A stretch of 64,000 nucleotides of DNA, taken from NCBI RefSeq assembly GCF_041248615.1, contig NZ_CP158426.1; one strand, written 5' to 3'. This stretch comes from Escherichia coli (GTDB lineage Bacteria > Pseudomonadota > Gammaproteobacteria > Enterobacterales > Enterobacteriaceae). Position 1 is the first letter of the stretch. Each line of letters opens with the position of its first letter. Positions 21,001 to 24,000 of this stretch are shown one piece after another. Position numbers: made by a program.

Positions 21001-24000
21001 ATACGATCTGCCTGCATCAGGATCTGACTCTGAATTCCGTCAGACGTATTTTCGATTCCGGCACCAATACCTGCAATATAGAGACGTCCATCCCGTGTCT
21101 GCTGCAGCTTCACAGCCCACATGCTGTTCAGGTTCCGGCGCGTGTCCTCCTGAACTTTCTGTATCTGCTCAATGCTGGCATTCCAGGATCCCAGTTTTTT
21201 ATCCGTGCTCTGTTTGATCTGACTTCCCTTATCATCAACATACTGTCTGATCTGCGCTATCTGTCGGCTGTTCTCCTCCGTGCTCCTGCTTACTGTCTGC
21301 CGGATTTCGCTTCCCATCCTGTCAACTTTTCTGTCAACTTCCGCAATGGCCATTGACTGTTCAGCGCTCTTTTTCGCCACAACAGTACTTATTTGCGCAC
21401 TTTTATCATCAACATACTGCCTGACCTGCGCTATCTGTCGGCTGTTCTCCTCCGTGCTCCTGCTCACTGTCTGCCGGATTTCACTGCTCACGCTGTCAAC
21501 TTTCCTGTCGACTTTCGCAATGGCCAGCGACTGTTCACCGCTCTTTTTCGCCACCAGTTCCGTTATGCTGTTTTCAGACGCCGTGATTTTTTTCGTCACC
21601 CCGGCGATATCACGCTCCGCACGCTGCCTCACATCTTTCTCCAGCTGCGTCATTTCGCGGTTAATCTCATTCTCCAGTTGCTCAACTTCAGTGCGCCGTG
21701 CAGAGGCATCAATGCGTTCATTGATCTCCCGTCCCAGATGCGTTTTATTTATCGCCCCCCTGAAAAAATTAAGGTAAGCGGCAGGATCATTACTCGGTTG
21801 ACCGACTGCCTCCACGAATGCCGATTTACCGACAGTGTTAACACTGCGGATATAAAAGTAATAATCATGGCCAGGTTTAATATTCTGGCCGGAGACAAGC
21901 CACTGACTTCCGGTACCAAGATAACGGGCTGTGGTTTCAACCTGCCTGATATCGGTAATCCGCTTTTCCGAAAACCAGAACTCAAACTGTACCGTCGGAT
22001 CATAAACCGCAAGATGCGGCGTGGCGGTTATCTGAAAATAGCCCGGCGTCAGCTCAATCCGCGACGGCGCTGCCGGTGCGGCAATCCGGAACGATACCGA
22101 CGCCGGGTCTCCCTGCTGCCCCCGGGCATTTACTGCCCGGACTGTCAGCCTGTAGTTCCCCGGCGCCAGCTGCCTGAAGCGGTATGTGGTTTCCGTCGTC
22201 CGGGCCGTGCTGACCAGCCGCTCACTGCCATCATCCGCGGCCACGGTCAGGCGAAGCAGGAAGCTCACGCCCTTCACCACCTTCGGCGTGTCCCAGCGCG
22301 CCAGCACCTGATATTCCCCGCTGTCTGCGGTGACTTCTGCGGTCAGGTGCTGCACCGCTGGCGGCGTGACACCATTCACCGTGCCGCTCTGGTCGCCGTC
22401 AAAGTGCGCCCCGTTATCCACGATGGCCTCTTTTTCCGGTACATGCTGCACGGCAGTGATGGCATACGTGCCGTCGTCGTTCTCACGGATACTCACGCAG
22501 CGGAACAGGCGCTGGCGCAGCGTCGGCAGCTTCAGCCCCCACACGCTGTACTCGGCAACGCCGTCAGGAACCCGGCTCACTTTTACCTTCACGCCGTCGG
22601 TGACGGAGTGAACCTCCACGCTGACCGGATTGCCACTTCCGTCAACCAGGCTTATCAGCGTGGTACCGGAGGATGGCAGCGTGATTTCACGGTCGAGCGT
22701 CAGCGTCCGGGTCTGGCTGTTCACCGCCAGCACACGACCACCGGTGCTGATACCGGCATAGTCATCATCACAGATTTCAATGACATCGCCCGGTACATGG
22801 CGAAGCCCTTCAGCACCCACGCTGAAATCCACGGTCTGCGTCTCCAGCAGTTCTGTTTTAATCAGCCACAGCCCGGCGCGGTGTGCCTGCCCCCGGCTGG
22901 TACAGCCAAAGGCATCCATCTTCGTGACGTTACGACCGTAACGGGCAATGGCCTGCGTGTCCTCCACAAGCTCTGTCGCCGTCTCCTGGCCGTTATCCGG
23001 GTCACTCCAGTTCACCTCAACGGCATTATGGCGGTCCTTCAGGGCGCTGAAGCTGTAGCGGAACGGCGCGCCATCATCCGGCATCACCACATTACTGCGG
23101 TTATAGGTCCACACCTTATCCGACGGTCGGTCCTGCACGAACGTCAGCGTCTGCCCGTTCCATACCGGCATACAGCGCATCGCCGAGCAGAAATCACTGA
23201 GCACATCCCACGCCTTACGCTGCCTGGTCAGCCAGGCATTACAGGTGATGCGCGGCTCCGTGCCACCAGAGCCGTCCGGCACTGACTGGTCGCAGTACTG
23301 GCCGATGACATACAGCGCCCATTTATCCACATCCGCCGCACCAAGACGTTTCCCCATGCCGTAGCGCGGATGGGTCAGCATATCCCACAGACACCAGGCC
23401 ATGTTGTTGCTGTATGCCGGTTTAAACGTTCCGTCCCAGATACCGCTGTATTGCCGCGTCTGCGGGTTATAATTCGACGGCACCTGCAGAATACGCCCGC
23501 GCAGATGATAATTACGGCTCACCTGCTGGCTGCCGAACTGCTCCGAGTCCACCTGCACGCCGACCAGTGCCGTGTTCGGGTAGCACTGTTTCACATCGAT
23601 AATTTCGGTGTATGACGACCAGAGCGTTTTGTTCTGCAGCTGGTCTGTGGTGCTGTCCGGCGTCATCCTGCGCATCCGGATACTGAACGGGCGCGGCGGC
23701 AGGTTACCCACCACCACCGGGGCCAGATACTGCGAGGTGGTTTTTCCCTTAATGGTGATGTCTTTTTCCGTTAACCAGCGACCGTTACGCTGTATCTGAA
23801 CCAGCAGGCGGACTTCCGACGGATTCCTGTCTCCCTTTGAGGTGGTTTCCACCAGTGCCTGCACACCGAAGGTCAGGCGCAGACGGTCGATGTTTGCCGA
23901 CGTGATGGTCCGGGTAATCGGCGTGTCGTACTTCACTTCCGTACCCAGCACCGTCTCGGAGCCGGAGGATTCAAATCCCTCCGGCGGCGTCTGCTCCTGC

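What the first reader, a model, noticed from the sequence alone, without database searches (positions are those of the whole stretch)
21228..21575. 174-bp tandem duplication inside the J host-specificity gene
Two adjacent ~174-bp units (~88 percent identical) encode two 58-aa coiled-coil-like repeats (KSAEQS.AIA.VDRKVD...[27 protein letters not shown]) in the part of J that links the conserved body to the C-terminal receptor domain. This lengthens J to 1302 aa versus 1132 in lambda. The C-terminal ~150 aa also differ from lambda J, implying a different receptor.
Basis: seen in the sequence. Interest (0 to 1): 0.35.

Follow-up and report, generated by a model that had tools for sequence, protein, structure and literature searches.

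The report
Tandem coiled-coil repeat in tail-tip J
A real in-frame 174-bp tandem duplication lengthens the helical stalk of a lambda-like prophage's tail-tip protein J, and related prophages carry one, two or three copies, so it is a natural length variant of a well-known protein rather than a new system.

Summary
Window 21228..21575 (minus strand) holds two adjacent 174-bp units (TRF period 174, 90% matches) inside an intact 1302-aa gpJ gene (20307..24215).

J residues 1-838 are almost lambda J. About 171 extra residues then sit inside lambda's alpha-helical segment (AHS, lambda 809-861), the bundle between FNIII-2 and the beta-prism fibre that remodels on receptor binding. The duplication supplies only 58 of those extra residues.

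The whole extension is a non-heptad coiled coil built on a 29-residue lattice. Its hydrophobic period is 3.625 = 29/8, with no signal at 3.5. AlphaFold2 gives one continuous helix across J 826-996.

Relatives differ by in-register steps of 11, 29 or 58 residues:
- one copy in about 722 of 5426 complete E. coli genomes (a diverged lineage), and one metagenome hybrid unit;
- two copies in 21 records;
- three copies in strain AR_0085.

Both copies are under purifying selection (pN/pS 0.32). The C-terminal receptor domain is 77% identical to the OmpC-using "A8" gpJ and 43% to lambda.

Most likely the repeat changes fibre length (about 8.6 nm per unit), not receptor specificity. The F7-pyocin fold-switch motif is absent. 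This is a new variant of a known kind, of moderate interest.

The parts
20307..24215 (-). gpJ (tip attachment / central tail fibre protein), 1302 aa, intact ORF
   Evidence: ORF list and translation. Pfam hits: FNIII-A_GpJ, Phage-tail_3, Ig_J, Ig_J_second, Phage_Tail_Tip and Ig_GpJ_C, all above cut-off. Residues 1-838 align to lambda J, PDB 8iyk. RefSeq annotation is gpJ, with tail genes I, K, L, M and H upstream.
21402..21575 (-). High-identity core is aa 886-938 = nt 21402..21560.
   Evidence: TRF; lag-174 profile; codon comparison.
21228..21401 (-). Repeat copy 2 (aa 939-996). High-identity core is aa 944-996 = nt 21228..21386. The copy junction SAQISTV lies at aa 939-945.
   Evidence: The junction is a hybrid: its left side matches the sequence after the repeat, and its right side matches the sequence before the repeat.
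21180..21701 (-). Segment absent from lambda J (aa 839-1012), lying between lambda residues 838 and 842
   Evidence: phmmer alignment to 8iyk_J splits at query 838/1013 against lambda 838/842.
21108..21776 (-). Whole extended alpha-helical segment (AHS), aa 814-1036 (YLNFF...MWAVK), 223 aa against 53 in lambda. It is a coiled coil on a 29-residue lattice.
   Evidence: BLOSUM autocorrelation peaks at lags 58 and 29. Hydrophobic Fourier peak at 3.625 residues (P = 4.05 against shuffle maximum 0.75 +/- 0.22; P at 3.5 = 0). AF2 gives a single helix over J 826-996. AHS length ladder.
21639..21671 (-). Older 11-aa duplication ([11 protein letters not shown], aa 849-859). Absent from the one-copy STEC-type J; present as a further exact copy in AR_0085.
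   Evidence: Side-by-side AHS sequences.
21762..22070 (-). FNIII-2 (Pfam Ig_J_second, aa 716-818), immediately N-terminal to the AHS
20790..21173 (-). Beta-prism fibre (Pfam Phage_Tail_Tip, aa 1015-1142), C-terminal to the AHS
   Evidence: AF2 predicts strands from J 998 onward.
20310..20681 (-). C-terminal receptor-binding domain (Pfam Ig_GpJ_C, aa 1179-1302), A8/OmpC-like type
   Evidence: Best PDB match is 9wca 'A8 gpJ 713'. Last 150 aa are 76.7% identical to A8 and 43.3% to lambda. A8 uses OmpC (PMC11338833).

Best explanation
The feature is an in-frame tandem duplication of a 58-residue segment. That segment equals two units of a pre-existing 29-residue lattice. It lies in the alpha-helical segment (AHS) of the trimeric tail-tip protein gpJ of an icd-integrated lambdoid prophage.

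The AHS here is a long non-heptad coiled coil with 29 residues per 8 turns. Length changes of 11, 29 or 58 residues therefore add a near-integer number of turns (3, 8 or 16) and keep the hydrophobic seam in register. That is why such indels are tolerated.

The duplication arose by unequal recombination between paralogous lattice positions 58 residues apart. It is fairly old: the copies differ by 12.6% at the nucleotide level, and each copy is 97.7-100% conserved among the carriers examined. Copy number still moves by unequal crossing-over, giving three copies in AR_0085 and a one-copy hybrid in a metagenome contig.

The inferred physical effect is that each unit lengthens the helical stalk by about 8.6 nm (58 x about 0.148 nm). 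The whole AHS would be about 25 nm longer than lambda's. This changes the stand-off distance and the geometry of the receptor-triggered rearrangement, not receptor choice. Receptor choice is set by the separately exchangeable C-terminal domain, which here is OmpC-like.

Shown: the repeat, its reading frame, its periodicity, the predicted helix, the copy-number variants, the mosaic C-termini and purifying selection. Inferred: trimeric parallel packing, the length change in nm, and any adaptive value.
For: The repeat is real and in frame.

Location in the AHS:
- The flanks align to lambda 810-839 and 842-870.
- Lambda's AHS is a three-helix bundle spanning 809-861 that remodels when LamB binds (PMC11101478).

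Periodicity:
- Fourier peak at 3.625 with zero power at 3.5. None of 1000 shuffles reaches it. It persists when copy 2 is removed and in the one-copy RM9872 protein.
- Lag-29 autocorrelation has z = 7.2 in RM9872 and z = 5.6 in the window protein without copy 2.
- Core columns of the 29-residue lattice are mostly Ile or Val.
- AF2 predicts one helix over J 826-996, with pLDDT about 80-90 over the repeats.

In-register natural indels:
- +58 in the window relative to the one-copy type, and +58 again in AR_0085 with units 1 and 2 identical at nt level.
- An exact +29 duplication in P0121.
- +11 in the window relative to RM9872, and an exact +11 in AR_0085.
- The 81-aa AHS type lacks exactly one 29-aa row relative to the 154-aa type.

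Contraction: metagenome contig L012 has a single unit with a copy-1 head and a copy-2 tail.

Selection: pN/pS = 0.32 and pS = 0.27 between the copies.

Module independent of receptor domain: the two-copy AHS occurs with an A8-like RBD (window), with an LR-31/PhiR40-type RBD, and with a short C-terminus followed by two small ORFs.

Long-AHS J works in an isolated phage: PhiR40_1 has the one-copy form.
Against: - No direct structural or functional data exist for this protein.
- AF2 was run as a monomer with a 25-sequence alignment (pTM 0.29), so trimeric parallel packing is assumed from lambda J.
- No isolated phage carrying the two-copy allele is in the phage collection, so the activity of this exact allele is unproven.
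- The one-copy form is far commoner (about 722 genomes against 21 records, several of which are the same strain), so extra length is clearly not generally advantageous.
- In lambda the AHS folds back onto the beta-prism on triggering. How a helix roughly four times longer would do this is unknown.
Confidence: 0.7

Rival explanations
1. Selectively neutral length polymorphism. Repeated DNA in a register-tolerant coiled coil expands and contracts by recombination, with no consequence for infection.
For: Variants with 1, 2 and 3 copies, and with +11 and +29 residues, all keep intact ORFs. The two-copy allele is rare (21 of 20,395 records). No phenotype is known.
Against: Both copies show purifying selection (pN/pS 0.32). 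The two-copy state is 97.7-100% conserved per copy among the carriers examined, across at least three different C-terminal contexts. It has therefore been maintained through recombination events rather than decaying. This explanation overlaps the best one, because the structure is the same and only the fitness effect is disputed.
Confidence: 0.3
2. An F7-pyocin-type fold-switching element. The long coiled coil stores energy and converts to a beta-prism on receptor binding, and extra repeats add stored energy.
For: The position is equivalent, between FNIII-2 and the beta-prism. In the F7 pyocin central fibre a 163-residue coiled coil there converts to a beta-prism (PMC12874032). In lambda, residues 841-861 of the AHS convert to beta strands. 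AF2 here predicts strands for J 998-1041, the homologue of that lambda stretch.
Against: The F7 motif SxSxxMxxLxS is not enriched in the window AHS (2 full matches against 1.98 expected). The same scan finds 10-15 matches against 2.5-4 expected in distant long-AHS J-like proteins, which serves as a positive control. AF2 gives a confident helix for the repeat units. The lattice period is 29 residues (3.625 per turn), whereas the motif-rich distant proteins show a 32-residue period (about 3.55).
Confidence: 0.1
3. Assembly artefact, or a decaying pseudogene in a defective prophage.
For: Repeats can be mis-assembled. Some carriers have damaged J genes: IS21-truncated in GF60 and a deletion fusion in LR-31.
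Against: The copies differ by about 12.6%, so they are easy to assemble. The identical structure appears in 21 complete records plus IMG/VR and metagenome contigs from independent projects. The window ORF is intact, all tail genes are present, and pN/pS is 0.32.
Confidence: 0.02

Closest known systems
Bacteriophage lambda gpJ (tip attachment protein J; PDB 8iyk, 8xcj), specifically its AHS helix bundle, residues 809-861
   Same: Same protein family and domain order. Residues 1-838 are nearly identical to lambda. The repeat lies inside the region whose flanks align to lambda 810-839 and 842-870. It sits in the same tail gene cluster.
   Different: The AHS is 223 aa instead of 53 and is built on a 29-residue lattice with a 58-aa tandem duplication. 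The receptor domain is only 43% identical to lambda's LamB-binding domain.
One-copy long-AHS gpJ of STEC/ExPEC prophages and phages PhiR40_1 and PhiR49_2
   Same: Homologous 29-residue-lattice AHS with one 58-aa unit (154-aa AHS). It is colinear in about 722 of 5426 complete E. coli genomes.
   Different: The unit is about 70% identical at nt level to the window's units. It has one copy instead of two and lacks the 11-aa [11 protein letters not shown] duplication.
A8 gpJ chimera (PDB 9wca, 9wcb; Brodel et al., Nature 2024, PMC11338833)
   Same: The C-terminal fibre and receptor domain is the closest solved relative (464 bits; 77% identity over the last 150 aa). A8 delivers DNA through OmpC.
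   Different: A8 keeps lambda's short AHS. Receptor use by the window protein is untested.
F7 pyocin central fibre protein, coiled coil to beta-prism fold switch (He et al., 2026 preprint, PMC12874032)
   Same: A long trimeric coiled coil at the equivalent position in a J-like protein.
   Different: The sequence motif linked to that switch is absent here, and the lattice period differs.
Size variation by intragenic repeat recombination in fibrous proteins, such as streptococcal M protein repeats and length-setting duplications or deletions in lambda tape-measure gpH (reviewer's own knowledge, not tested here)
   Same: In-frame tandem repeats in an elongated helical protein. Copy number is changed by unequal homologous recombination, and length scales with copy number.
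   Different: The protein and biological role differ. No antigenic-variation or ruler function has been shown for J.

Membership tests
TipJ / lambda gpJ central tail fibre | J domain architecture (FNIII-A, hub/Phage-tail_3, two Ig/FNIII domains, tail-tip fibre, C-terminal Ig RBD) | tested here: met
   Six Pfam J domains score above their curated cut-offs, in the canonical order.
TipJ / lambda gpJ central tail fibre | Sequence homology to lambda J across the hub | tested here: met
   phmmer against 8iyk_J gives 1801 bits over residues 1-838 and 304 bits over 1013-1301.
TipJ / lambda gpJ central tail fibre | Position at the end of a lambda-type tail gene cluster (H, M, L, K, I, J) | tested here: met
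   RefSeq annotation of the window region.
TipJ / lambda gpJ central tail fibre | Homotrimer forming the tail tip | not testable with these tools
   Only monomer AF2 was available.
In-frame coding tandem repeat with copy-number polymorphism | Period is a multiple of 3 and the ORF is uninterrupted | tested here: met
   Period 174 nt = 58 codons; ORF intact.
In-frame coding tandem repeat with copy-number polymorphism | Different copy numbers in close relatives | tested here: met
   One copy (L012 hybrid unit), two copies (21 records, plus L010, L011, L013) and three copies (AR_0085, P0002).
In-frame coding tandem repeat with copy-number polymorphism | Both copies constrained as protein | tested here: met
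   pN/pS = 0.32 between the copies.
Alpha-helical coiled coil (non-heptad, 29/8) | Regular hydrophobic periodicity near 3.5-3.67 residues | tested here: met
   Peak at 3.625, P = 4.05 against shuffle maximum 0.75 +/- 0.22.
Alpha-helical coiled coil (non-heptad, 29/8) | Predicted continuous helix | tested here: met
   AF2 helix over segment residues 44-214 (J 826-996), pLDDT about 80-90.
Alpha-helical coiled coil (non-heptad, 29/8) | Parallel multi-helix packing | not testable with these tools
   No multimer prediction was available. Packing is inferred from lambda's three-helix AHS.
F7-pyocin-type fold-switching coiled coil | Long coiled coil between FNIII-2 and a beta-prism seed | tested here: met
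   description of the family.
F7-pyocin-type fold-switching coiled coil | Recurrent SxSxxMxxLxS strand motif | tested here: not met
   2 matches against 1.98 expected. The positive control is enriched in distant homologues.
F7-pyocin-type fold-switching coiled coil | Both helix and beta-prism conformations predicted or observed | tested here: inconclusive
   A monomer AF2 run with a shallow alignment gives helix for the repeats and strands only from J 998 onward.
OmpC-binding J receptor domain (A8 type) | Close sequence similarity of the C-terminal domain to A8 | tested here: met
   76.7% identity over the last 150 aa, against 43.3% to lambda.
OmpC-binding J receptor domain (A8 type) | Infection or delivery depends on OmpC | not testable with these tools
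   This needs host-range tests. A8's OmpC dependence is taken from PMC11338833.

The most novel reading that the evidence does not exclude
The AHS of lambda-type J proteins is a modular, register-preserving length element. Natural alleles differing by quanta of 11, 29 and 58 residues (AHS of 53, 81, 154, 223, 252 and 292 aa) tune the stand-off distance of the tail from the outer membrane, or the travel or energy of the receptor-triggered opening. This would adapt the same hub and receptor domain to cell surfaces of different thickness (O-antigen, capsule). The window allele would then be a lambda hub coupled to an F7-length coiled coil that works by a mechanism different from the F7 beta-prism switch.
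Probability: 0.2. Interest if true: 0.6.

Novelty: new variant of a known kind. Interest (0 to 1): 0.38.

Why it matters
gpJ's helical segment is the element that couples receptor binding to tail opening in lambda. A coiled coil at the same position drives membrane puncture in F-type pyocins. A set of natural J alleles sharing a near-identical lambda hub but carrying helical segments of 53 to 292 residues, differing in clean in-register steps, is a ready-made length series. It could be used to test how stalk length affects adsorption, triggering and host range. It is also relevant to engineered lambda-based delivery particles that already swap J C-termini. Beyond that, this is an ordinary repeat polymorphism in a known structural protein.

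Tried and rejected
- PDB sequence search with the insert alone returned only the lambda and A8 flanks, so no solved homologue of the repeat exists.
- Pfam and PHROGs scans of the AHS gave no curated family above cut-off. Only sub-threshold helical-repeat matches appeared (DUF1542 at 21 bits, Apolipoprotein at 20.6 bits).
- The F7 fold-switch motif scan showed no enrichment, although the scan works on distant homologues.
- Megablast and tblastn against 50,697 phage records found no phage with the two-copy module. Only PhiR40_1 and PhiR49_2 carry the one-copy module.
- The search for homologous proteins returned mostly fragmentary J proteins, because short-read assemblies break inside J. It was therefore poor for counting copies, but it did reveal a 3-copy fragment, P0002.
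- Literature searches for tandem duplication in J, or for papers on the PhiR phages, found nothing relevant in the held library. This is not proof of novelty.
- The antisense ORFs over the repeat (21280..21777 and 21393..23285 on the plus strand) were dismissed. The minus-strand frame is homologous to lambda J throughout and is under purifying selection.
- Assembly artefact was rejected (see rival explanations).
- A pseudo-trimer AF2 run using linked chains was considered. It was not run because linkers would bias the model towards antiparallel packing.

Full report
**Observation.**
Tandem Repeats Finder reports a 174-bp period at window 21229..21554 (1.9 copies, 90% matches, no indels, score 554). 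The repeat lies inside the only long ORF of the region, 20307..24215 on the minus strand, which encodes 1302 aa. 174 nt is 58 codons, so the repeat is in frame. A lag-174 identity profile places the conserved overlap at aa 886-938 versus 944-996 (87.4% nt identity over 159 nt). About six codons at the copy junction have diverged.

**What the gene is.**
The protein carries all gpJ Pfam domains in the canonical order and above their cut-offs. It aligns to lambda J (PDB 8iyk) at 1801 bits over residues 1-838 and again over residues 1013-1301. It sits at the end of a lambda-type tail cluster in a prophage integrated at icd in E. coli NRZ14408, record NZ_LT599825.1.

**Where the repeat sits.**
- The alignment to lambda breaks between lambda residues 838 and 842. 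The window protein has about 171 extra residues there (aa 839-1012).
- In lambda this is the middle of the AHS, a three-helix bundle (residues 809-861) under FNIII-2. On LamB binding the AHS flips and partly converts to beta strands, which releases the FNIII domains and opens the tail (PMC11101478).
- The duplication contributes 58 of the 170 extra residues. The remainder is a longer AHS that one-copy relatives also have.

**Anatomy of the extended AHS.**
- BLOSUM autocorrelation peaks at lags 58 and 29. Lag 29 remains the top signal in the one-copy protein of O145 strain RM9872 (z = 7.2) and in the window protein with copy 2 removed (z = 5.6).
- The hydrophobic Fourier spectrum peaks at exactly 3.625 residues (= 29/8), with P = 4.05 against a shuffle maximum of 0.75 +/- 0.22. 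There is no power at 3.5.
- Written in rows of 29, the core columns are mostly Ile or Val.
- AlphaFold2 (monomer, 25-sequence alignment) gives one continuous helix over J 826-996, with pLDDT about 80-90 across both repeat units. Strands begin at J 998.
- The region is therefore a non-heptad coiled coil. A 58-residue unit is 16 turns, so the duplication preserves the hydrophobic seam.

**Copy number and related alleles.**
- Blastn of the insert against 5426 complete E. coli genomes found 21 records with the full two-copy structure at 98.3% identity or more. Several of these are re-assemblies of one chicken strain.
- One record, AR_0085, matched over a span 174 bp longer than the query. About 750 records matched over a span 174 bp shorter, at about 73.5% identity.
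- Fetching the loci confirmed three units in AR_0085, with units 1 and 2 identical at nt level, plus an exact 11-aa duplication. It also confirmed one unit in RM9872 and in phage PhiR40_1.
- The one-copy type is colinear in about 722 genomes.
- An exact-match scan with the 39-nt core shared by both copies found two IMG/VR contigs and one metagenome contig with two copies.
- It also found one metagenome contig (L012) with a single unit whose head is copy-1-like and whose tail is copy-2-like. That is the expected product of unequal crossing-over between the copies.
- A protein fragment, P0121, carries an exact 29-aa duplication. The 81-aa AHS type lacks exactly one 29-aa row relative to the 154-aa type.
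- AHS lengths in lambda-type J thus form a ladder of 53, 81, 154, 223, 252 and 292 aa. The recent steps are 11, 29 or 58 residues, all close to whole numbers of turns at 3.625 residues per turn.

**Origin and selection.**
At the copy junction, the left side matches the sequence that follows the repeat. The right side matches the sequence that precedes it. Seven diverged codons lie between them. This fits unequal recombination between lattice-paralogous positions 58 residues apart. Between the copies pS = 0.27 and pN/pS = 0.32, so the duplication is not recent and both copies are constrained. Each copy is 97.7-100% conserved among the carriers examined.

**Independence from the receptor domain.**
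The two-copy AHS is found with three different C-terminal contexts:
- the window's Ig-type RBD;
- a different Ig-type RBD (LR-31), of the type also carried by one-copy L012 and PhiR40_1;
- a short C-terminus followed by two small ORFs (B771, TUM1886, 24A16CRGN010, AR_0085, L010, L011, L013).

The window's last 150 aa are 76.7% identical to the A8 gpJ chimera (PDB 9wca) and 43.3% identical to lambda. A8 delivers DNA through OmpC (PMC11338833). The repeat is thus a stalk feature. Receptor choice is most likely OmpC and is set elsewhere in the protein.

**Mechanism.**
The best-supported reading is that each 58-aa unit extends a trimeric helical stalk by about 8.6 nm. This is inferred from standard helix rise, with trimer packing inferred from lambda. 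The effect would be on fibre length and on the geometry of triggering.

A recent preprint shows that a 163-residue coiled coil at the equivalent position in the F7 pyocin converts to a beta-prism to drive puncture. I tested that model. The diagnostic motif SxSxxMxxLxS is not enriched here (2 matches against 1.98 expected). The same scan finds strong enrichment in distant long-AHS J-like proteins, and those proteins have a 32-residue lattice instead. AF2 predicts strands only for J 998-1041, the homologue of the lambda stretch that is known to switch. F7-type switching of the repeat units is therefore unlikely, though not excluded. A purely neutral polymorphism cannot be excluded either.

**Novelty.**
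No Pfam family, solved structure or paper in the held library describes this repeat. Even so, it is a length variant of a very well-known protein, and long coiled coils in J-like fibres are now documented. I rate it a new variant of a known kind, of moderate interest. Its main value is as a natural in-register length series on a lambda hub.

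Noticed in passing
window 43529..44611 (+), within ORF 43469..44611: The prophage carries its own OmpC-subfamily porin (NCBIfam NF007841, 521 bits, above cut-off) between the Q antiterminator and the lysis genes. Its J receptor domain resembles an OmpC-binding one. This could be a receptor-replacement or superinfection-exclusion arrangement like phage PA-2 Lc or DLP12 nmpC (reviewer's own knowledge).
   Followed up: partly
window 40635..40961 (-): A small (108 aa) prophage ORF matches only the C-terminal domain of TonB (TIGR01352, 47 bits). It might be a decoy or modulator of TonB-dependent uptake.
   Followed up: partly
window 12743..17515: A sitABCD iron/manganese transporter operon lies between the tail end of the prophage and the partial icd copy at the prophage boundary. 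sitD is split by an IS1414 insertion (transposase at 15935..17143).
   Followed up: no
window 10662..10829 and 62449..63699: A partial icd copy and the intact icd gene bracket the element. The integrase is at 61193..62335. This points to an icd-integrated lambdoid prophage plus cargo of about 51 kb. The iss/bor gene is at 41445..41738.
   Followed up: partly
window 18188..20254 (-): The side-tail-fibre region is one continuous 688-aa ORF in the window. RefSeq annotates it as a pseudogene fragment plus a 'head spike fiber domain' protein. The ORF contains a GTA_spike_fiber domain (55 bits).
   Followed up: partly
window about 40.6-41.4 kb: Window coordinates run 3 bp ahead of NZ_LT599825.1 from about 41.4 kb onward. 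The window therefore differs from that RefSeq record by a 3-bp indel, although the J region is 100% identical.
   Followed up: no
L001 (AR_0085) J aa about 848-870; protein P0121: Further exact in-register duplications occur in the same helical segment. AR_0085 has an 11-aa duplication ([11 protein letters not shown] x2). P0121 has a 29-aa duplication ([29 protein letters not shown] x2).
   Followed up: yes
L005, L006, L008, L001 (downstream of J): Many two-copy J genes end in a short, unrelated C-terminus (…DVYDDNNVLRVRLGRL). Two small ORFs of 225 and 663 nt follow. This resembles the separate-RBP locus described downstream of J in Drexlerviridae.
   Followed up: partly
L004 (GF60) and L007 (LR-31): Two carriers have damaged J genes. 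In GF60, J is truncated by an IS21-family insertion. In LR-31, the J reading frame starts directly after the head decoration gene, implying a deletion of the capsid-to-tail genes.
   Followed up: no
window J aa 998-1041 (nt about 21093..21224): AF2 predicts beta strands for the stretch homologous to lambda J 841-861. That stretch is helical in lambda's closed state and beta in its open state, so the predictor returns the open-like conformation.
   Followed up: partly
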